Shown piece after piece: positions 2,278 through 45,865 of a stretch of DNA of 64,000 nucleotides (position 1 is the stretch's first letter; every line of letters begins with the position of its first letter). Source of the DNA: Candidatus Collierbacteria bacterium (GTDB lineage Bacteria; Patescibacteriota; Microgenomatia; UBA1400; JACPES01); NCBI GenBank assembly GCA_016183365.1, contig JACPES010000003.1, positions 269,051 to 333,050 on the forward strand. The letters run 5' to 3'. The notes under the pieces were generated by a model that saw only the letters and a list, made by a program, of their open reading frames with translations, was not told where the DNA came from and searched no databases. The position numbers and the translations under genes are program-made.

Positions 2278-2937
2278 ATGAATAAGCCATTGTTTTTCGG
2301 ATTTTTATTATTGGGATTGACTTTTTTTATTCAGGTGAAAACCGTTTTTGCTGCCACCAATCCCCGGTTATATTTGGACCCGGCTACCGACAGCGTTGAG
2401 TCCGGATCCCAATTTACGATTAAACTATTTATCGACGCCGGAACTAAATTAACGATAGCCGCCGACGCTAAAATTTCTTTCCCTAAAGCTAAACTGGAAG
2501 TAGTTTCAGTTAAAAGCGGAACTTATTTCGATTCCGTCACTAAAATTATCGGCAATCAAACCGGCAATTTAGAGATCCACGCCTATAATCAAGCTCAAGG
2601 CGAAACCAAAACCGGTTTGGGCGAACTGGTAACTATTACCTTTAAATCTTTATCGCCGGGTTCGGCCTTTATCGATTTAGCGTGTAACGATGGCAGTACT
2701 ATTGATAGCAATATTGCCGATGTGGTTGGCAATGATATTATCGATTGCACTCAAACTTTCGGCAGCGAAATTTCCGTGACGCAAGCCGGGGTTGCCGACA
2801 CCGCTACTCCGACCTCGACCCCTTCCAAACTTCCGCAAGCTGGAAACATAAGTCCTTCTATAATGCTTTTGACAGTTGGATCATTGGCATTAATATCAGG
2901 CTTTTCGTTATTGGCAATGCAAAAAGAATCTGTATGA
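2278..2937 (+). CDS. Secreted surface protein with a cohesin-like beta-sandwich domain and a C-terminal LPQAG sortase-type sorting signal
   Basis: ATG at 2278 (MNKPLFFGFLLLGLTFF, a signal peptide). The body shows a cohesin-like pattern (AADAKISFPKAKLEVVSVKSGTYFDS... GELVTITFKSLSPGSAFIDLA). C-terminus: LPQAG, then a roughly 24-residue hydrophobic stretch, then a short QKESV tail. Confidence 0.5.
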   Translation: MNKPLFFGFLLLGLTFFIQVKTVFAATNPRLYLDPATDSVESGSQFTIKLFIDAGTKLTIAADAKISFPKAKLEVVSVKSGTYFDSVTKIIGNQTGNLEIHAYNQAQGETKTGLGELVTITFKSLSPGSAFIDLACNDGSTIDSNIADVVGNDIIDCTQTFGSEISVTQAGVADTATPTSTPSKLPQAGNISPSIMLLTVGSLALISGFSLLAMQKESV

Positions 2938-3254
2938 AAAAGAAACAATTGATCGGATTCGCATTTTTATCATTACTTCTCGGAGCCGGATTGGCTGGCG
3001 GTCTATATGTTATCAACACCCCGGCTAAAATAGCTCCCAGGGCCGTATCCCCCTCCTTAATAAATCAACCGTCTCCGACTAAAGTTTTGGCTCCGGCCAC
3101 AGTCCCGCCTCAAAAACCACCTGCCAAAACACAATTATCGGAACAGGCGATTATCGACGCTTTCGGAACAGTCTCGACAGACTTTGATCTAAATCAGGAC
3201 GGAACCGTTAATTCTTTAGATATTTTGGAATTTAGAAAAACTTTATTGAAGTAG
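2934..3254 (+). CDS. Small N-terminally membrane-anchored protein with a dockerin-like / EF-hand-like calcium-binding repeat
   Basis: ATG at 2934 overlaps the upstream stop (ATGA). It encodes MKKKQLIGFAFLSLLLGAGLAGG (TM or signal), a Pro-rich linker, then DFDLNQDGTVNSLDILEFRKTLL, which matches the dockerin DxNxDGxVNxxD pattern. The 5' part of the 2745 ORF overlaps the previous gene and was trimmed. Confidence 0.45.
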   Translation: MKKKQLIGFAFLSLLLGAGLAGGLYVINTPAKIAPRAVSPSLINQPSPTKVLAPATVPPQKPPAKTQLSEQAIIDAFGTVSTDFDLNQDGTVNSLDILEFRKTLLK

Positions 3255-4265
3255 TTTCGGTTGATCGATCTCCTGAAAAGATACCGTGGAGGTGATTTTT
3301 TGCCCCAATCTTTGGGTATGGCCTGAAACATCGCTGAATTTGTTGTACGCGTTATTGATATGCCCGCCTAAGATGTTTAACGAATCTTCCAATTGTCCAT
3401 AATCTTTTTCCACCGCCCGCAACAGATTTAAAATTTGCCTTGATCGAGAGGCGAATTGTTTGCCTTGAAATGCCCGCATAATTATTGACAGAGTGGCGTA
3501 CATGGTGTTCGGGCTGACCGGATAAATCCTTAAATTCCTGGAGTAATCCATTAAATCGGGGTTAGTGGCGATTTCGTAATATACCGATTCGCTGGGGATG
3601 TACATCATCGCAAAATCGGTAGTCCCTTCGTCCGGCAAAACGTATTTTGAAGAGATGGCCCGAATATGTTTTTTCACGTCGTTGACAAATTCCTTGCCGG
3701 CTTTTTCTCTTTCAGATTTTTCTTCCGCTTGATTCATTTTCTGAAAATTTTCCATCGGGAATTTGCTGTCTATCGGCAAAATTCCGGCGTCGGTTTTGAT
3801 AGCCGCGTCCACCTTGTCTCCGGAAACAAATTGATATTGGAGATAAAAAGAACTTTGAGGAATCATTTGGGCGATTAGATCGTTCAGGACTTGCTCGCCG
3901 ATATTTCCCCGTAGTTTCGGGCTTTTTAAAAATTCGTGCAATTCTTTCATTGATCGGCCGATTTCGCTGAAACTGCCGGTTTCGCGCTTTAACTCGCCGA
4001 TAACCTCGGCAGCTTTAGTCAGGCGCTCATGGATATCGTGGGTTTGTTTAGTCAAAGATTCTGATAAATGGCGGGTAGAATCCGATAAAGTTTCGTTAAG
4101 GACTTTTTTAGTGTCCGAAATATCTCGGCTCATGGTCTTTAACCATTCGGTCATGGTTTCATCGGTCTTAGGTTTTTTTAATTCCTGAATCTGGCGGTTA
4201 AGATACCAGGTGATAGCCGCCAAAACTGCGATTAAAACCGCCGCCGCTAAAGATAGTTCCAGCAT
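3243..4265 (-). CDS. rmuC: DNA recombination protein RmuC
   Basis: N-terminal TM segment, long coiled-coil region, and the RmuC-typical C-terminal region (GNIGEQVLNDLI ... YVLPDEGTTDFAMMYIPSESVYYE). Confidence 0.8.
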   Translation of the reverse strand: MLELSLAAAVLIAVLAAITWYLNRQIQELKKPKTDETMTEWLKTMSRDISDTKKVLNETLSDSTRHLSESLTKQTHDIHERLTKAAEVIGELKRETGSFSEIGRSMKELHEFLKSPKLRGNIGEQVLNDLIAQMIPQSSFYLQYQFVSGDKVDAAIKTDAGILPIDSKFPMENFQKMNQAEEKSEREKAGKEFVNDVKKHIRAISSKYVLPDEGTTDFAMMYIPSESVYYEIATNPDLMDYSRNLRIYPVSPNTMYATLSIIMRAFQGKQFASRSRQILNLLRAVEKDYGQLEDSLNILGGHINNAYNKFSDVSGHTQRLGQKITSTVSFQEIDQPKLLQ

Positions 4266-33315: not shown

Positions 33316-34476
33316 AATCAGGAAAATCAATCCACTGGTTAAAAAATGGCTGGATAAAAACGGATTTAATTGCAGAGGGAGATAAGGATCTTTGATATAA
33401 AAAATCAGTAAGAAATAGGTTAGGCCGACTATTGCCAGGTCTTTGAATTTTTTAGTTTGAATAAATTTTGCGATTAGAACTATCCAAACGGGAATTAAAA
33501 TAGTGTAATGATGCTGCCACACAAAAACCGGCAAAAATAGCAAAACTATTATTGTTAAATGCCAAAAATCAATAAAGTCATTCCTAGTTGTTCCGGTTTT
33601 TATAATTTTTATAATTCTTATAGCTCTTACTCCTAAAATAAAACTAATCCCTAACCTAATCGCCGAATTTAAATTTCCGAAAACCCCAAATCTCGCTATC
33701 AACGCCGTTATCGACTGATTCATGTAGGAAGCGTTAACAGTTTCTTTGGTTACTTCACCCATCAGACCGGGAACAACCGACACAAAATAATATTTTGTCA
33801 AATCCCAACCGAAAACGAACCCTCCCATAACTGTTAGAAACGCAAAAGTGAAAACATACCAGTTAACCACTTTCCATTTTTTTCTAATCAAAAAATAAAT
33901 TAGTATCGGCGCCGGAGTCAACTTGAGAATAGTTGCCAAACCAAATAAAATTCCAGAAACAGTATCTTTTTTCCTGATTGTGACAAAATAATAACTGCCG
34001 ACAATCAATGCCAAAACGATCAAATTAATCTGCCCAAGCGCTAAAGTTAATTTTACCGGAAACATTTTTAAACACAGCGTAAAAATCAGCCATTTAATAA
34101 CCAATGATCCACGAGATCCCTCGACTACGCTACGTTCCGCTTGGGATGACGGGGAGGAACGATCAAAGTTGAGAATCCGTAAAGTCATGGATACCGTCAA
34201 CCAAAGACTTACTACTGACAAAACTGTAAATAACCATTCTGATAATTCTGTCGGTGCTGCCGCCAATGGAAGAAAAAAAAGGGTAGTGGCCGGCGAATAG
34301 TTATACCGGTCAAAAAATTTCAGCTTATAAGGATTTTCTCCATTCAAAGTCGCTTTTGTACCATCAATATAGACGCTAAAATCATTAAGAGGAAAGTTTT
34401 TTACCAAATTTGCCAACGGCACTACCTGACGGTATAAAATTATTGCTACAATCAAGAGTATTATTCTTTTAGCCAT
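33229..34476 (-). CDS. Polytopic membrane protein, GT87/DUF2029-like (putative mannosyltransferase)
   Basis: DFSVYIDGTKATLNGENPY, resembling the GT87 DFxxYYxAAxxxxxGxNPY motif. Start trimmed to the ATG at 34474-34476, which shares a CATG with the divergent 34475 gene. The 3' end overlaps the convergent 31747 gene. Confidence 0.45.
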   Translation of the reverse strand: MAKRIILLIVAIILYRQVVPLANLVKNFPLNDFSVYIDGTKATLNGENPYKLKFFDRYNYSPATTLFFLPLAAAPTELSEWLFTVLSVVSLWLTVSMTLRILNFDRSSPSSQAERSVVEGSRGSLVIKWLIFTLCLKMFPVKLTLALGQINLIVLALIVGSYYFVTIRKKDTVSGILFGLATILKLTPAPILIYFLIRKKWKVVNWYVFTFAFLTVMGGFVFGWDLTKYYFVSVVPGLMGEVTKETVNASYMNQSITALIARFGVFGNLNSAIRLGISFILGVRAIRIIKIIKTGTTRNDFIDFWHLTIIVLLFLPVFVWQHHYTILIPVWIVLIAKFIQTKKFKDLAIVGLTYFLLIFYIKDPYLPLQLNPFLSSHFLTSGLIFLILNLKSFSSNQNQIPNGKKLLKQNSGSGF

Positions 34477-36766
34477 GAAATCTTTCAACCATTTAACCAT
34501 TCTAACCATTTTAACTTTTGTAGTCACCACAATATTTTACTTCAAGCCCATCTGGAAAAATAAGTTGATTCCTTTTCCAGGCCGCCTGCTGGTATCTTAT
34601 TTTAGCCCCTGGAAAGAAGAATCATGGCCCGAGTTTCCGACCGGAGTTCCGCGTAAAGGTCTATTGGGTTTTGATACCGCCAGAATGATGGGTTCCTGGC
34701 GCAGTTTTATTACAAACGAACTTAAACAAGGCAGATTGCCGACCTGGAACCCGCATCAGTTCGCCGGCGCCCCGCTTTTAGCCAATTTCCAATCGGCCAC
34801 TTTCTTTCCTCCCAATCTAATTTATCTCCTGCTTCCTTTTTCAATCGCCTGGACAATTTTAGTCATTTTTCAACCCTTGTTAGCAAGTTTTGGGATGTAT
34901 TTATTGCTTAAATCACAGTTTAAAGACAAAAACCTAATAACTAACAACCAAATACTAATAACTATTCTTCCTTCTCTCGCCTACGGTTTTTCCGCCTGGA
35001 TGTCTGTTTGGATAGAATGGAATATTCACGGTTTTGTTTACGCCCTGCTTCCATTTGTGCTCCTTTTTATCCATAAGAGAAAAGCCATTTTAATCATTTT
35101 AACCATTTCAGCCATTATTTTTGCCGGTCATCCGCAAATGGCCTTTATTGCCCTGACGGCTGCCGCGCTCTTTGCCGCGGTCAATCACCGTCTTAAAAAA
35201 TTTCTGTTGTCAGCCGCGGTCGCCCTTCTAATTACTTCTGTCCAGTGGATTCCCGCTGTTCGTTACTACCAAGAGGCCAGCCGGGAACAATCCTCAAGCG
35301 AATTTACTTACGAAAAAACTCTCTTACCGTGGGGCCAAATCTCGCAATTAATAGTTCCTAATTATCTGGGAAATTCCGCCACCGGAAATTTCCGCGGCCA
35401 AGCAAATTTTGTAGAAACCACCGCTTATTCAGGAATAGCAATTTTGGGATTTGCGATTATGGGATTGTTGGCAAGAAACAAGAAACAAGAAGTAAAATTT
35501 GCCGTTTTTCTCCTTCTGACAATTTTCCTTTTTGTTCTCCCCAACCCATTTTCATTTCTTGTAGGCAAACTCAACATCCCGATTCTTTCCACCAGCGTCG
35601 CCAGTCGCTGGCTGATGCTTTTGCCTCTGGCGGTAACTTTGTTAGCTGCCGCCGGTATCGACCGATTTATTGAACTAACTACATCAAACCCTACTAAAAA
35701 GGCCAGGCCTTTTCCGGAAAGGCCTGGCCTTTTCTCTCCCGCCGTTTTTGTTTTTATCCTAATAGCTGGTCTGTGGATATACGCTTTGCTATCTCCTTCT
35801 GAACTCCGTTCGGTTTCCATCCGCAATCTGATGATACCCAGCGCCATCGCCGGCTTATTCCTATTAACATTGTCATTCCGGACTGCCGACCCGCCTGCAA
35901 GCGCCTGGAGCGCTAGCGACTGGCGGGCAGGTCGGCAGTCTGTAATGAAGATTTTATTGTTTTCTTTGGTTGTTTTGTCTATCGGTGAGCTTATTTTATT
36001 CGGTTGGAAAACAATGCCGTACACTGAAAAAAATTTCGTTTATCCGGAGACTCCGGTGTTAGAAAAATTACAGGAGTTTTCCAAAGATGGTAGTAGATTT
36101 GCATCTACTGATGGCAGCGTAATCGAGTCAAATTTTGCCACTTATTATAAGTTATATGATTTATCAGGCTACGATGCTTTGTACCCGCGCAGAATCGGAG
36201 AATTGATTTGGGTAGCTCAAAATAAAGGGCAACCTGTAGCCGATTTTTCCCGGTCTACCGTGGTCACTCCCACCTCTCCTTCACTGACCAAAGATAATCT
36301 TTGGAACTTGGCCGGCGTCCGCTGGATCATCAATAAAGATGACCTGCTGTCAGAACATCCCGGCCAAAGATCTAATGATTTATCTCCCGACTTCAAACTT
36401 ATCTGGGAAGAAGGCAAGTGGCAAATCTACGAAAACCTTAACGCATTTCCTCGGGCTTTCTTTATTAAGAGTGGGGATTGGATTGGTGAGGGTGATGACG
36501 TGATTAGTAGCTCCTTAAATCTCTCAACCTCTTTAGTCTCCCTTATCACCCCGGCTAGAATTGTCTTCTATCAGCCGACAAAGGTGGCGATAGAGGTTAG
36601 CGCCCCAGCTGATGGTTATCTGGTATTAACCGATACTTTTTATCCCGGCTGGACGGCTACCGTTGATGGTCCTTTGGCGGAGATTGTTCCGGCGTTTCAT
36701 GCTTTTAGAGCCGTTCCGGTCTCTCAAGGAAATCATATTGTTAAGTTTAGTTACGGTTCTTTATAA
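34475..36766 (+). CDS. YfhO-like GT-C polytopic membrane protein (paralog of 56130 and 59927)
   Basis: Shared N-terminal pattern: …YFSPWKEE…GRLPTWNPHQFAGAPLLANFQSATFFPP…. Carries in-frame palindromes at 35697..35734 and 35872..35948 and a (CAAGAAA)3 repeat. Confidence 0.5.
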   Translation: MKSFNHLTILTILTFVVTTIFYFKPIWKNKLIPFPGRLLVSYFSPWKEESWPEFPTGVPRKGLLGFDTARMMGSWRSFITNELKQGRLPTWNPHQFAGAPLLANFQSATFFPPNLIYLLLPFSIAWTILVIFQPLLASFGMYLLLKSQFKDKNLITNNQILITILPSLAYGFSAWMSVWIEWNIHGFVYALLPFVLLFIHKRKAILIILTISAIIFAGHPQMAFIALTAAALFAAVNHRLKKFLLSAAVALLITSVQWIPAVRYYQEASREQSSSEFTYEKTLLPWGQISQLIVPNYLGNSATGNFRGQANFVETTAYSGIAILGFAIMGLLARNKKQEVKFAVFLLLTIFLFVLPNPFSFLVGKLNIPILSTSVASRWLMLLPLAVTLLAAAGIDRFIELTTSNPTKKARPFPERPGLFSPAVFVFILIAGLWIYALLSPSELRSVSIRNLMIPSAIAGLFLLTLSFRTADPPASAWSASDWRAGRQSVMKILLFSLVVLSIGELILFGWKTMPYTEKNFVYPETPVLEKLQEFSKDGSRFASTDGSVIESNFATYYKLYDLSGYDALYPRRIGELIWVAQNKGQPVADFSRSTVVTPTSPSLTKDNLWNLAGVRWIINKDDLLSEHPGQRSNDLSPDFKLIWEEGKWQIYENLNAFPRAFFIKSGDWIGEGDDVISSSLNLSTSLVSLITPARIVFYQPTKVAIEVSAPADGYLVLTDTFYPGWTATVDGPLAEIVPAFHAFRAVPVSQGNHIVKFSYGSL
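35697..35734. repeat. Near-perfect palindrome AAAAGGCCAGGCCTTTTCCGGAAAGGCCTGGCCTTTT, in frame in a CDS
   Basis: Member of the AAGGCCWGGCC family (see 52251, 52534, 57168). Encodes KKARPFPERPGLFS. Confidence 0.75.
35872..35948. repeat. GC-rich palindromic element GTCATTCCGGACTGCCGACCCGCC…GGCGGGCAGGTCGGCAGTC…TGTAATGA, in frame in a CDS
   Basis: Long imperfect stem. The 5' terminus is identical to the 22955 element. Encodes LSFRTADPPASAWSASDWRAGRQSVMK. Confidence 0.65.
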
Positions 36767-45034: not shown

Positions 45035-45865
45035 ATGGCACGTAGTCGAACTACATCCAAATTGATTTCTAGGCTTACCGGTGAGTTGGCCGTTACGACC
45101 TTGGATTTCGTGGTACTATCTGCTGCTTTGGCCGGTGGGATGATTCTATACGGACCTAGTGGAAAAGATTTATACGCCAGCCAAAAAACCCAAAGAGCTC
45201 TGAAAATGACGGGATTAATGTACAAAAAATGGGACGAATCGGCTTTCCGCCGTGCAGTTGGTCGGGCAGCCGGCGAAGGATTGGTTAAACGAATTACAGA
45301 TGGCTTTAAATTGACAGGGTCAGGTAAAAAGCGGTTGAAGGAATTATTACCGTCGTATAAACAACCCAAACCTTGGGATGAAAAATTGTGGTTGGTGACC
45401 TATGACATTCCGGAAGACAAGCGTTACATTCGTGATCGCTTTCGCAATTGGCTGTTTGAAATCGGCTGTCGAATGATCCAGGAATCAGTATGGCTATCAG
45501 TCAAAGATCCAAAACCTTGGATTAAAGATTCGATAGCATCAATGGAAAAGGGAAATATCATCGTATCGTGTTTGGGTAAGGATGGAAGTATCGGGAATGA
45601 GAATTTAAACGAACTGATTTATCGCGTGTTTGAATTAAAACGATTGAACAAGGCATATAAAAGTTGGTTGCAAGCAGTAAATCAACAAAGTAGTAAATCA
45701 ACAGTATTGAGTTTAGGTTTTAGATTTTTATCTCTTTTGCGTCAAGATCCAATGTTTCCGAAAGATCTACTGCCTCAAGATTGGGCGGGCAACAAAGCCA
45801 GGAGAATCTTCGAGACAGAAATCGAGTCTGAAATGGGTGCGATCAAAATATACTTGCAAAAATAA
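45035..45865 (+). CDS. PaaX-family transcriptional regulator
   Basis: WDEKLWLVTYDIPEDKRYIRDRFRNWLFEIGCRMIQESVWLS and DPMFPKDLLPQDWAGNKARRIF match the PaaX middle and C-terminal domains (compare E. coli PaaX WDGKWLLLL… / DPLLPEELLPAHWAGHTARQL). Confidence 0.8.
   Translation: MARSRTTSKLISRLTGELAVTTLDFVVLSAALAGGMILYGPSGKDLYASQKTQRALKMTGLMYKKWDESAFRRAVGRAAGEGLVKRITDGFKLTGSGKKRLKELLPSYKQPKPWDEKLWLVTYDIPEDKRYIRDRFRNWLFEIGCRMIQESVWLSVKDPKPWIKDSIASMEKGNIIVSCLGKDGSIGNENLNELIYRVFELKRLNKAYKSWLQAVNQQSSKSTVLSLGFRFLSLLRQDPMFPKDLLPQDWAGNKARRIFETEIESEMGAIKIYLQK

What the first reader, a model, noticed from the sequence alone, without database searches (positions are those of the whole stretch)
2278..3254. 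Adjacent cohesin-like surface protein (LPQAG sorting signal) and dockerin-like small membrane protein: a possible minimal cohesin-dockerin pair outside a cellulosome context
Gene 1 (2278..2937) has a signal peptide, a roughly 150-residue domain with the cohesin sequence pattern, and an LPQAG motif followed by a hydrophobic anchor. Gene 2 (2934..3254) overlaps it by ATGA. It is N-terminally anchored and ends in DFDLNQDGTVNSLDILEFRKTLL, a single dockerin/EF-hand-type Ca-binding repeat. Translationally coupled genes for the two halves of a protein-protein docking module would be a novel cell-surface assembly or attachment system in an episymbiotic-type genome. No sortase gene is in this window.
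Basis: inference. Interest (0 to 1): 0.6.

Follow-up and report, generated by a model that had tools for sequence, protein, structure and literature searches.

The report
Wall-anchored cohesin with half-dockerin membrane partner
Two overlapping genes of a tiny-genome Collierbacteria (CPR) bacterium encode a cohesin that is probably linked to the cell wall and a 106-residue membrane protein ending in one dockerin-type calcium-binding repeat. This is the smallest version of a cohesin-dockerin surface module that turns out to be common in related bacteria, and whether the two proteins bind each other is still untested.

Summary

- **Gene 1 (2278..2937):** signal peptide, one cohesin domain and a C-terminal LPQAG + hydrophobic segment. 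Pfam Cohesin scores 29.7 bits against a cut-off of 24.1. The AlphaFold2 core has pLDDT above 90, and the top 50 Foldseek PDB hits are all cohesins.
- **Gene 2 (2934..3254, ATGA overlap):** N-terminal membrane helix, Pro-rich spacer, then helix, a 12-residue Ca-type loop and a helix. This is exactly one dockerin repeat, so it fails the two-repeat definition of a dockerin.
- **Organism:** Candidatus Collierbacteria (Microgenomates, CPR). NCBI calls both genes "hypothetical protein".
- **Conservation:** the pair keeps its 4-nt overlap in four different neighbourhoods, with dN/dS 0.11-0.23.
- **Wider family:** the cohesin belongs to a large family, with 3,497 50%-identity clusters at E<=1e-3. Relatives place such cohesins next to membrane-anchored FN3 proteins with one or two dockerin repeats, and sometimes next to GH39, GH5-dockerin or PilN/PilO genes.
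- **Not shown:** binding between the two proteins, sortase processing and function. No sortase lies in the window, and the rest of the genome could not be searched.

Verdict: a new variant of a known kind, of moderate interest.

The parts
2278..2937 (+). Gene 1 (219 aa, NCBI HYU89_02740 / MBI2309793.1, annotated 'hypothetical protein'): exported single-cohesin protein with a C-terminal LPXTG-type sorting signal.
   Evidence: ORF and sequence. The start agrees with NCBI and with homologue conservation. dN/dS is 0.12-0.21 against relatives.
2278..2352 (+). Predicted Sec signal peptide (residues 1-25, ...TVFA|A).
   Evidence: By inspection of the sequence. AF2 gives helix 4-22 at low pLDDT. No dedicated signal-peptide predictor was available.
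2359..2781 (+). Cohesin domain (about residues 28-168), with two invariant cysteines C136 (nt 2683-2685) and C157 (nt 2746-2748).
   Evidence: Pfam PF00963 at 29.7 bits against a 24.1 cut-off. AF2 pLDDT block means are 86-98 for residues 31-170, an all-beta sandwich. The Foldseek PDB top 50 are all cohesins, E about 2e-9, target-normalised TM mostly about 0.5-0.8, best 0.79, rmsd 2.3-3 A for the best. Both Cys are invariant in 18 homologues and at least 90% conserved in 117 family members.
2782..2829 (+). Thr/Pro-rich linker (residues 169-184) between the cohesin and the sorting motif.
   Evidence: Sequence. pLDDT is about 50.
2830..2844 (+). LPQAG pentapeptide (residues 185-189), an LPXTG-type motif with Ala at position 4.
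   Evidence: L185, P186, A188 and G189 are invariant in 18 homologues. In the wider family of 117: 47 LPxTG, 31 LPxSG, 10 LPxAG. It is the only LPx[TAS]G match in the six-frame ORFs of at least 50 aa of the window.
2854..2934 (+). Hydrophobic C-terminal segment (about residues 193-213) and short tail MQKESV with a single Lys.
   Evidence: AF2 helix 193-218. TIGR01167 scores 15.1 against a 15.9 cut-off, and EF0750_LPXTG gives E 1.2e-3. 27 of 117 family members match EF0750_LPXTG, 12 match TIGR01167 and 8 match PF00746.
2934..2937 (+). ATGA start/stop overlap of gene 2 and gene 1 (translational coupling).
   Evidence: Sequence. The same 4-nt overlap occurs in L001, L002, L003, L006, L007, L008, L020-L023, and in the Shapirobacteria locus L004.
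2934..3254 (+). Gene 2 (106 aa, NCBI HYU89_02745 / MBI2309794.1, annotated 'hypothetical protein'): small bitopic membrane protein with a C-terminal single dockerin-type repeat.
   Evidence: ORF. 33 homologues at 46-100% identity. dN/dS is 0.11-0.23. NCBI name.
2949..3014 (+). N-terminal membrane helix (residues 6-27) with invariant G17, G19, G22, G23 (LLGAGLAGGLY), followed by the nearly invariant juxtamembrane motif Y25-V26-x-x-T29-P30-T31-x-I33-A34-P35-K/R-A37.
   Evidence: AF2 helix 2-28, pLDDT 76-80. Invariant columns. There is no canonical small-x-small signal-peptidase site, since Pro sits at -3 (by inspection), so a signal anchor is more likely than a cleaved signal.
3018..3134 (+). 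Pro-rich spacer (residues 29-67; 10 Pro in 39 residues). Its length varies among homologues, with a 15-aa insertion in the 121-aa forms.
   Evidence: Composition. AF2 gives no structure here and pLDDT below 50. In-frame indels are visible.
3135..3167 (+). Conserved pre-helix LSEQAIIDAFG (residues 68-78), the 'E helix' of an EF-hand-like unit.
   Evidence: E70, I73, I74, F77 and G78 are invariant. AF2 helix 70-76. It is also conserved in FN3-type partner proteins of other lineages. It aligns to the inter-repeat helix of the C. cellulolyticum dockerin 2vn5_B (query 72-104 against chain 24-56).
3186..3251 (+). Single dockerin-type repeat. The 12-residue Ca-type loop DLNQDGTVNSLD covers residues 85-96 and the helix ILEFRKTLLK covers residues 97-106.
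   Evidence: Pfam Dockerin_1 at 21.3 bits against a 22.9 cut-off, one repeat only. The family profile puts 15 dockerins at the top of the PDB list, best E 7e-5, and the single repeat matches both repeats of each. Positions 1, 3, 5, 9 and 12 are D, N, D, N, D, all invariant; these are the Ca-coordinating positions of dockerins (PMC4582956). AF2 gives a loop with a beta-bridge at 86/92 and helix 97-105, at pLDDT of only about 60.

Best explanation
This is a two-gene cell-envelope module of a Collierbacteria (CPR) bacterium.

**Gene 1.** It is exported through Sec and folds into a single cohesin domain, probably stabilised by a C136-C157 disulfide. Its LPQAG + hydrophobic C-terminus is an LPXTG-type sorting signal. 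A sortase encoded elsewhere in the genome would therefore link it covalently to peptidoglycan. Sortase linkage is inferred.

**Gene 2.** It is translated by re-initiation at the ATGA overlap, which would favour coupled expression of the two proteins. It stays in the membrane through an N-terminal signal-anchor helix. A roughly 40-residue proline-rich spacer holds out one calcium-loaded EF-hand-like unit that is one repeat of a dockerin.

**Proposed interaction (inferred, not shown).** This half-dockerin is the cognate ligand of the neighbouring cohesin. It could bind alone. Alternatively, two copies could pair, brought together by the invariant Gly-rich membrane helix, to mimic a normal two-repeat dockerin. 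The complex would be a calcium-dependent, non-covalent strap between membrane and wall, or an occupied docking socket on the cell surface.

**Context.** The pair is the minimal form of a cohesin-dockerin surface system found across Microgenomates. In relatives the partner additionally carries an FN3 domain and one or two repeats, and sits beside GH39, GH5-dockerin or PilN/PilO genes.
For: **Shown**
- The cohesin assignment rests on the Pfam profile above its cut-off and on the predicted fold. The AF2 core has pLDDT above 90, and the Foldseek top 50 are all cohesins, including the sortase-anchored ScaE (2zf9) and the non-cellulosomal A. fulgidus cohesin (2xdh).
- LPxAG is invariant. The wider family carries LPx[T/S/A]G + TM in 88 of 117 members, and members match LPXTG-anchor models.
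- Gene 2's C-terminus matches dockerins and no other Pfam family at E<=10. The family profile puts 15 dockerins on top in the PDB.
- All five Ca-coordinating positions and the putative recognition positions 11 and 17, plus Phe16, are invariant (positions as defined in PMC4582956).
- Both genes are under purifying selection.
- The pair keeps its ATGA overlap while its neighbours change: rpoC/RmuC, an ABC transporter, DsbD/thioredoxin, PIN/NusA.
- Starting from the half-dockerin side, all 8 CPR-type metagenome hits have a cohesin gene immediately upstream.
- Starting from the cohesin side, Shapirobacteria L004 has a 4-nt-overlapping partner with a TM, an FN3 domain and two dockerin repeats.

**From the literature**
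- N-terminally truncated dockerins still bind cohesin (Karpol 2009, as cited in PMC4728124).
- Sortase is near ubiquitous in Microgenomates (PMC6744442).
Against: - No physical or modelled evidence exists that the two products touch. The complex model could not be run.
- Gene 2 alone models with pLDDT of about 60 in the C-terminal unit, and Foldseek finds nothing with it.
- Only one repeat is present, and Pfam Dockerin_1 and TIGR01167 both fall just below their cut-offs.
- Position 4 of the sorting motif is Ala, and the tail has a single basic residue. Many family members have no basic tail at all.
- No sortase was found in the 64-kb window or in any fetched locus.
- The Gly-rich TM motif is confined to the Collierbacteria-type partners and is absent from FN3-type partners. 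The dimer idea is therefore weakly grounded.
- Gene adjacency could reflect co-expression of two surface proteins that do not bind each other.
Confidence: 0.55

Rival explanations
1. The cohesin is a general docking socket for other dockerin-bearing proteins encoded elsewhere in the genome, such as enzymes or FN3 adhesins, or on a host cell. Gene 2 would then be a competitor, placeholder or regulator of that socket, or only one of several ligands, and not a structural strap.
For: - Relatives have several dockerin-bearing proteins and several cohesins per cluster: GH5-dockerin and a 645-aa protein in L005, FN3 with two repeats in L017, and cohesin+dockerin proteins in L019.
- Classical anchoring cohesins such as ScaE bind dockerins of other scaffoldins (PMC4081043).
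- A dockerin-domain protein is essential in a Saccharibacterium and was proposed to target host glycans (PMC10633639).
Against: - In 64 kb of window and about 172 kb of Collierbacteria-type loci, the only dockerin loop is gene 2's.
- The strict 4-nt coupling and joint relocation of the pair argue for a dedicated partnership.
- The rest of the genome could not be inspected.
Confidence: 0.2
2. Gene 1 is not processed by a sortase. It stays in the membrane through its C-terminal helix, and LPxAG is only a conserved hinge. Gene 1 and gene 2 then form a hetero-complex of two oppositely oriented single-pass membrane proteins at the outer face of the membrane.
For: - The motif has Ala instead of Thr at position 4, and the tail has one Lys. 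Many family members end without any basic tail.
- TIGR01167 falls below its cut-off.
- No sortase is seen in any fetched sequence.
- Both membrane segments contain invariant glycines: G201 and G208 in gene 1; G17, G19, G22 and G23 in gene 2.
Against: - L-P-x-[T/S/A]-G, about 3 residues, a hydrophobic helix and the end of the protein is the canonical tripartite sortase signal. It is kept in 88 of 117 diverse relatives.
- 27 members match a sortase-dependent surface-protein model.
- Sortase is near ubiquitous in Microgenomates.
Confidence: 0.15
3. Gene 2 is an independent small calcium-binding (EF-hand-like) membrane protein, for example for Ca sensing or envelope stabilisation. It would be co-transcribed with the cohesin gene only by operon history, and the dockerin resemblance would reflect the shared Dx[DN]xDG calcium motif.
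For: - The Dx[DN]xDG motif occurs in many unrelated calcium-binding contexts (PMC3123361, listed).
- Only one repeat is present, and the Pfam score is below its cut-off.
- Weak hits to the EF-hand protein CaBP1 appear at E of about 1.
Against: - Similarity extends beyond the loop into the helix. F16 and R17 are invariant and positions 10-11 are S/T-L, and the similarity is specific for dockerins: 15 top hits, E down to 7e-5, against E of about 1 for EF-hand proteins.
- The same C-terminal unit is found next to a cohesin gene in every case examined, including two-repeat versions.
Confidence: 0.08

Closest known systems
ScaE of Ruminococcus flavefaciens (sortase-anchored single-cohesin anchoring scaffoldin; structure 2zf9)
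   Same: The architecture is the same: signal peptide, one cohesin and a C-terminal sortase signal that fastens it covalently to the cell wall (PMC4081043). ScaE is among the Foldseek hits of the gene 1 model (E 3e-7).
   Different: - ScaE binds the X-dockerin modules of large scaffoldins (ScaB, CttA) to hold a cellulosome.
- Here the only candidate ligand nearby is a 106-residue membrane protein with one repeat.
- No glycoside hydrolase is in the window.
- Sequence identity is about 11-12%, and the best structural matches are type I cohesins.
Type I cohesin-dockerin complexes of clostridial cellulosomes (e.g. C. acetobutylicum CaCohA2-CaDoc0917, 6kgc; C. thermocellum 1ohz; C. cellulolyticum 2vn5)
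   Same: - 6kgc chain A is the best structural match of gene 1, and its partner chain is among the best sequence matches of gene 2.
- The loop has the dockerin Ca ligands at positions 1, 3, 5, 9 and 12, with Asp rather than Glu at position 12 (PMC4582956).
   Different: - Canonical dockerins have two repeats on one chain and are fused to secreted enzymes or scaffoldins.
- Here there is one repeat, preceded by a conserved helix, on an N-terminally membrane-anchored mini-protein.
[quoted passage not shown] 2009, FEMS Microbiol Lett 291:1; e.g. Archaeoglobus fulgidus cohesin 2xdh, Clostridium perfringens cohesins 2jh2/2vo8)
   Same: These are cohesin and dockerin modules in organisms without cellulosomes, mostly on non-catalytic proteins (statement in PMC13487519). 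2xdh ranks fifth among the structural matches.
   Different: - The review itself could not be read.
- In the papers searched here, nothing describes a translationally coupled pair of a sortase-type cohesin and a membrane-anchored single-repeat partner, or any cohesin-dockerin system in Microgenomates.
Single-repeat dockerin Clocl_2271 of Clostridium clariflavum and engineered truncated dockerins
   Same: - Natural dockerins with only one repeat exist but are rare: 1 of 75 in C. clariflavum (PMC4582956).
- Progressive N-terminal truncation of a dockerin left cohesin binding largely intact (Karpol 2009, cited in PMC4728124).
   Different: These are exceptions or laboratory constructs. Here the single repeat is the conserved state in at least two partner families.
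Minimal cellulosome-like systems (Cellulosilyticum lentocellum ClcC + GH5-dockerin, PMC13487519; C. saccharoperbutylacetonicum, PMC7157769)
   Same: Both are reduced systems with a single cohesin protein and few dockerin partners.
   Different: In those systems the dockerin is fused to a working cellulase and the cohesin protein carries a CBM. Here there is no enzyme and no CBM. The Daviesbacteria relative L005 (GH5-dockerin near two cohesin genes) is closer to that kind.

Membership tests
Cohesin domain (Pfam PF00963) | Sequence profile match above the curated threshold | tested here: met
   29.7 bits against a gathering score of 24.1, E 8.2e-7, residues 37-128. 104 of 117 wider-family members also match.
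Cohesin domain (Pfam PF00963) | Nine-stranded beta-sandwich (jelly-roll) cohesin fold | tested here: met
   The AF2 model has pLDDT block means of 86-98 over residues 31-170. The Foldseek PDB top 50 are all cohesins, E 2e-9 to 9e-6, target-normalised TM up to 0.79.
Cohesin domain (Pfam PF00963) | Binds a dockerin | not testable with these tools
Dockerin type I (Pfam PF00404) | Two tandem repeats of about 22 residues, each a Ca-binding loop plus helix | tested here: not met
   Only one loop is present (regex). Pfam aligns profile positions 3-23 of 57 only. The single repeat aligns to both repeats of each PDB dockerin.
Dockerin type I (Pfam PF00404) | Loop with Ca ligands at positions 1, 3, 5, 9, 12 (D/N, with Asp at 12), followed by a helix bearing the recognition residues | tested here: met
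   D85, N87, D89, N93 and D96 are invariant, as are L95 (position 11), F100 (16) and R101 (17). Positions are as defined in PMC4582956.
Dockerin type I (Pfam PF00404) | Profile score above the curated threshold | tested here: not met
   21.3 bits against 22.9. This is expected for half of a two-repeat model. The family profile against PDB dockerins reaches E 7e-5.
Sortase substrate (LPXTG cell-wall anchor; TIGR01167 / PF00746) | LPXTG pentapeptide near the C-terminus | tested here: inconclusive
   The motif is LPQAG, with Ala at position 4, and LPxAG is invariant in close homologues. In the wider family: 47 LPxTG, 31 LPxSG, 10 LPxAG. TIGR01167 scores 15.1 against 15.9.
Sortase substrate (LPXTG cell-wall anchor; TIGR01167 / PF00746) | Hydrophobic segment followed by a positively charged tail | tested here: inconclusive
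   The hydrophobic helix is present. The tail MQKESV has one Lys, and K216 is at least 90% conserved. Many relatives have no basic tail.
Sortase substrate (LPXTG cell-wall anchor; TIGR01167 / PF00746) | A sortase encoded in the same genome | not testable with these tools
   None is in the window or in the fetched loci. Only 64 kb of the 588-kb contig was accessible. The literature reports sortase as near ubiquitous in Microgenomates (PMC6744442).
Cellulosome | Scaffoldin with two or more cohesins plus dockerin-fused glycoside hydrolases | tested here: not met
   There is one cohesin, one half-dockerin, and no glycoside hydrolase among the 40 window ORFs scanned with Pfam. The definition is as stated in PMC13487519. 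Relatives do carry GH39 or GH5-dockerin genes nearby.
Canonical EF-hand (paired helix-loop-helix) | Helix, 12-residue loop and helix, usually with Glu at loop position 12, occurring in pairs | tested here: inconclusive
   AF2 predicts a helix-loop-helix topology at low confidence. Position 12 is Asp, which is dockerin-like. Only one unit is present per chain. No Pfam EF-hand family hit appears at E<=10.

The most novel reading that the evidence does not exclude
The Collierbacteria pair is the minimal core of an undescribed cohesin-dockerin envelope system found across Microgenomates. In this reading, a membrane-anchored half-dockerin dimerises through its invariant Gly-rich membrane helix and reconstitutes a two-repeat dockerin from two chains (a 'split dockerin'). 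It then latches onto a peptidoglycan-linked cohesin. The result is a calcium-dependent, non-covalent membrane-to-wall tether or host-attachment socket in ultra-small episymbiotic bacteria.
Probability: 0.25. Interest if true: 0.7.

Novelty: new variant of a known kind. Interest (0 to 1): 0.5.

Why it matters
- CPR/Patescibacteria have tiny genomes and are thought to live attached to other cells. Very little is known about how their envelope is organised or how they attach.
- This pair is kept under purifying selection in these small genomes. In this lineage it sits directly behind rpoBC, and its cohesin belongs to a family with thousands of 50%-identity clusters. It is therefore unlikely to be decoration.
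- If the two proteins bind, this would be the smallest natural cohesin-dockerin system. It would also be the first in which the dockerin function is carried by a single repeat on a membrane anchor.
- Such a system would be a compact natural Ca-switchable tag/receptor pair for protein engineering.
- It would also give a way into the surface biology of Microgenomates, including the links seen here to FN3 proteins, GH39/GH5 enzymes and PilN/PilO.
- If they do not bind, the finding is still a correct annotation of two 'hypothetical proteins'.

Tried and rejected
2. **Foldseek on gene 2.** The search with the gene 2 model gave only one meaningless hit, E 8.7. The model is mostly disordered with pLDDT of about 60.
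3. **Sequence searches of gene 1 against the PDB.** Neither the single sequence nor the profile found any cohesin. The relationship is visible only through the Pfam profile and the predicted fold.
4. **Sortase.**
   - No T[LIVM]xTC or looser [TS][LIVM]x[TS]C motif lies in a plausible context.
   - No sortase appeared in Pfam scans of 40 window ORFs.
   - The rest of the 588-kb contig is out of reach of the tools.
5. **Genome-collection scan with the close-family alignment.** It found only one GTDB species representative, a Collierbacteria. The degenerate-pattern method sees close relatives only.
7. **Unavailable resources.** The afdb50 fold library is not installed, and Peer et al. 2009 (PMC3035643) is not held.
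8. **Readings considered and rejected.**
   - Sortase-assembled pilin: the fold is cohesin, not CnaA/B.
   - Cleaved secreted peptide for gene 2: there is no acceptable -3/-1 signal-peptidase site, though this was not tested with a predictor.
   - Classical cellulosome: there are no enzymes here.
   - Chance ORF for gene 2: dN/dS is 0.11-0.23 and the indels are in frame.
Full report
**1. The observation**

Both ORFs are real and lie at the stated coordinates.
- Gene 1 runs from ATG 2278 to TGA 2937 (219 aa). NCBI's protein MBI2309793.1 (HYU89_02740) uses the same start, and homologue conservation begins at this Met.
- Gene 2 runs from ATG 2934 to TAG 3254 (106 aa; MBI2309794.1, HYU89_02745). 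Its start overlaps gene 1's stop as ATGA.
- NCBI annotates both as 'hypothetical protein'. They sit on a 588,265-bp contig of Candidatus Collierbacteria bacterium, in the Microgenomates group of the Patescibacteria/CPR.
- In six-frame ORFs of at least 50 aa across all 64 kb, an LPx[TAS]G pattern and a dockerin-loop pattern each occur exactly once, in these two adjacent genes.
- In 172 kb of related loci, a relaxed form of the dockerin-loop pattern hits only gene 2 homologues. The co-occurrence is therefore not chance.

**2. Gene 1 is a cohesin with an LPXTG-type C-terminus**

- Pfam Cohesin matches above its curated threshold: 29.7 against 24.1 bits, E 8e-7.
- AlphaFold2 on an 18-sequence alignment gives an all-beta sandwich with pLDDT block means of 86-98 for residues 31-170.
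- Foldseek against the PDB returns cohesins only in its top 50, with E down to 2e-9, target-normalised TM up to 0.79 and rmsd 2.3-3 A for the best. The hits include type I cohesins, the non-cellulosomal A. fulgidus cohesin 2xdh and the sortase-anchored ScaE cohesin 2zf9.
- Plain sequence searches against the PDB do not see this relationship.
- Two cysteines (C136, C157) are invariant, which fits an extracytoplasmic disulfide. This reading is an inference.
- The C-terminus has LPQAG, then 3 residues, then a hydrophobic helix, then MQKESV. L, P, A and G of the motif are invariant in 18 homologues down to 41% identity.
- TIGR01167 misses its cut-off narrowly, 15.1 against 15.9.

**3. Gene 2 is a bitopic mini-protein ending in one dockerin repeat**

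- AF2 predicts a membrane helix (2-28), a disordered Pro-rich spacer (10 Pro in residues 29-67), a short helix (70-76), a loop with the beta-bridge typical of EF-hand loops, and a final helix (97-105).
- The C-terminal unit has a pLDDT of only about 60, and a fold search with this model is uninformative. The sequence evidence is stronger.
- Pfam reports only Dockerin_1 at E<=10. [quoted passage not shown]
- A profile of 21 homologues puts 15 dockerins at the top of the PDB list, best E 7e-5. The single repeat aligns to both repeats of each dockerin.
- Loop positions 1, 3, 5, 9 and 12 are D, N, D, N, D and are invariant. These are the Ca-coordinating positions of dockerins (PMC4582956).
- Positions 11 (Leu) and 17 (Arg), which that paper lists among the recognition positions, and position 16 (Phe) are also invariant.
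- A conserved helix (LSEQAIIDAFG) precedes the loop, so the unit is a complete helix-loop-helix.
- The membrane helix is unusually conserved, with G17, G19, G22 and G23 invariant. So is a juxtamembrane motif YVxxTPTxIAP[KR]A, whose role I cannot explain.
- Because there is only one repeat, the protein fails the two-repeat definition of a dockerin. I file it as 'dockerin-type repeat', not as a dockerin.

**4. The pair is a conserved unit**

- Gene 1 has 28 and gene 2 has 33 close database relatives, often on contigs of identical length.
- In every Collierbacteria-type locus with enough sequence, the two genes are adjacent with the same 4-nt overlap.
- The neighbours differ:

| Locus | Neighbourhood of the pair |
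|---|---|
| window, L001/L008, L002, L020-L023 | between rpoC and a convergent RmuC gene |
| L007 | after an ABC transporter gene |
| L003 | after DsbD/thioredoxin genes |
| L006 | before PIN/NusA/IF-2 genes |

- Both genes are under purifying selection, with dN/dS 0.11-0.23 where dS is not saturated.

**5. It is the minimal member of a much larger system**

- An exhaustive profile search with the cohesin alignment finds 3,497 50%-identity clusters at E<=1e-3 and 766 at E<=1e-10. Most of the 150 best-scoring ones listed are 210-260 aa and match over their full length.
- Of 117 sampled members, 104 match Pfam Cohesin.
- 88 of the 117 have LPx[T/S/A]G followed by a hydrophobic end. The rest mostly have IPVTG or PPVSG variants.
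- 27 match a sortase-dependent surface-protein model.
- Named members come from Candidatus Shapirobacteria, Daviesbacteria and 'Patescibacteria group'.
- Contexts are summarised below.

| Locus | Arrangement |
|---|---|
| L004 (Shapirobacteria) | cohesin gene overlapped by 4 nt with a gene for TM + FN3 + two dockerin repeats |
| L009, L010, L012, L015, L016 | cohesin-LPxTG, then TM-FN3-linker-helix-single dockerin repeat, followed in L009, L010 and L015 by a GH39 gene |
| L011 | cohesin followed by a 105-aa TM + Pro-rich + single-repeat protein, a second minimal partner |
| L005 (Daviesbacteria) | GH5 cellulase-dockerin close to two cohesin genes |
| L017 | three cohesin genes followed directly by PilN, PilO, a 64-aa gene and an FN3 + two-repeat dockerin gene |
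| L019 | proteins with both a cohesin-like domain and dockerin repeats |

- Starting from the half-dockerin side, all 8 CPR-type hits of the metagenome scan have a cohesin gene immediately upstream.
- The C-terminal unit (helix-GT-x5-loop-helix) aligns across these partner families.

**6. Mechanism**

*Shown:* the domain identities, the topology signals, the coupling and the conservation.

*Inferred:*
- (a) A sortase links gene 1 to peptidoglycan. No sortase is in the window or in any fetched locus, and the rest of the genome could not be searched. Méheust et al. report the sortase family as near ubiquitous in Microgenomates (PMC6744442).
- (b) Gene 2 remains membrane-anchored. By inspection, Pro sits at -3 of the only small-residue site, so cleavage is unlikely.
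- (c) The half-dockerin binds the adjacent cohesin in a Ca-dependent way. This is plausible because N-terminally truncated dockerins keep binding (Karpol 2009, cited in PMC4728124). Type I binding is dominated by one repeat helix (established knowledge of the dual binding mode).
- (d) Optionally, two chains pair through the Gly-rich membrane helix to imitate a two-repeat dockerin. Lone EF-hands normally pair. However, the Gly motif is absent from FN3-type partners, so this step is weak.

The geometry fits. A 16-residue linker holds the cohesin close to its wall attachment point. A spacer of about 40 residues, roughly 12 nm if extended, lets the membrane-anchored repeat reach it. The outcome would be a membrane-to-wall strap or a pre-occupied docking socket.

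**7. Rivals**

- The cohesin may serve other dockerin proteins encoded elsewhere or on a host cell.
- Gene 1 may stay in the membrane without sortase processing.
- Gene 2 may be an unrelated Ca-binding protein.

Each is set out with its tests in the rival section. A classical cellulosome is excluded for this window, because there is no glycoside hydrolase and only one cohesin.

**8. Known or new**

- Sortase-anchored single cohesins (ScaE), non-cellulosomal cohesin/dockerin modules (Peer et al. 2009) and rare single-repeat dockerins (Clocl_2271) are all known.
- NCBI already labels some relatives 'cohesin domain-containing protein'.
- Full-text searches found no paper describing cohesin-dockerin gene pairs in Microgenomates or Patescibacteria. 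The only related mention is an essential dockerin-domain protein in a Saccharibacterium (PMC10633639). The library does not hold most subscription journals.
- I rate the finding a new variant of a known kind: a genetically coupled, wall-anchored cohesin with a membrane-anchored single-repeat partner, conserved in a CPR lineage.
- Interest is moderate (0.5). The parts are recognisable with standard profiles, and the mechanism is untested. The system is nevertheless widespread, unstudied and directly testable.

Noticed in passing
window 6652-63650: Nearly the whole rest of the window is an island of envelope-glycosylation genes. It holds at least 8 PMT_2-type GT-C membrane glycosyltransferases, one GT87, two YfhO-like proteins, at least 9 GT2 enzymes (one fused to GtrA), a Polysacc_synt_3 flippase, UDP-glucose dehydrogenase, three GDP-mannose-dehydratase/epimerase-like enzymes and BacA. 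The Thr/Pro-rich linkers of genes 1 and 2 would be plausible O-glycosylation targets, but this is an inference only.
   Followed up: partly
window 34475-36766 and 34729-34826: A tRNA-Ser (GGA) gene on the minus strand lies inside the mechanical ORF 34475..36766 (YfhO-like). The true start of that gene must therefore be downstream of the tRNA.
   Followed up: no
window 3243-3254: The 3' end of gene 2 overlaps by 12 nt the 3' end of the convergent RmuC-family gene (3243..4265, minus strand). No terminator-like hairpin lies between them. A promoter-like TTGACA-17-TACAGT sits at 2242-2270, between rpoC and gene 1.
   Followed up: partly
window 2949-3044 (gene 2 residues 6-37): The membrane helix and the juxtamembrane motif Y-V-x-x-T-P-T-x-I-A-P-[KR]-A are almost invariant across homologues that differ by up to 50% elsewhere. 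A plain anchor would not need this. It might be a partner-binding or processing site and remains unexplained.
   Followed up: partly
L017 2317-6648 (JGI Ga0568889_0001332): Three consecutive cohesin genes are followed directly by PilN and PilO homologues, a 64-aa gene, and a 353-aa TM + FN3 protein with two dockerin repeats. This hints at a link between cohesin-dockerin proteins and the type IV pilus platform in CPR.
   Followed up: partly
L009 124-2801, L010 8-2634, L015 730-3362: A conserved three-gene cassette: SP-cohesin-[LI]PVTG, then TM-FN3-single dockerin repeat, then a GH39-family glycoside hydrolase with an N-terminal anchor.
   Followed up: partly
L005 346-7362 (Ca. Daviesbacteria JACQIY010000051.1): A GH5 cellulase with two dockerin repeats, a 645-aa protein ending in two dockerin-like repeats, and two cohesin genes lie next to a phage-type integrase and a Y1 transposase. 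This looks like a cellulosome-like mini-cluster that may be mobile.
   Followed up: partly
L003 1370-4719: In this divergent relative the pair sits directly after DsbD-like, HMA and thioredoxin-like genes. This fits the two invariant cysteines of the cohesin needing an extracytoplasmic disulfide system.
   Followed up: no
L019 1607-3482 (GCA_030699725.1): Two adjacent proteins each combine an N-terminal anchor, a cohesin-like domain, a long Thr/Pro linker and dockerin repeats on one chain. Such proteins could chain to each other.
   Followed up: no
L013 303-1688 and L014 17-1222: Marine metagenome proteins of 400-461 aa, with a CxxC thioredoxin-like N-terminus and Gly-rich repeats, end in a dockerin-like repeat pair. 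They are unrelated to the CPR module and were picked up only through the loop pattern.
   Followed up: no
window 45035-45865: A 276-aa protein has PaaX-middle (Cas2-like) and PaaX C-terminal domains, with a weak CRISPR_Cas2 match below its cut-off. No CRISPR array was looked for.
   Followed up: no
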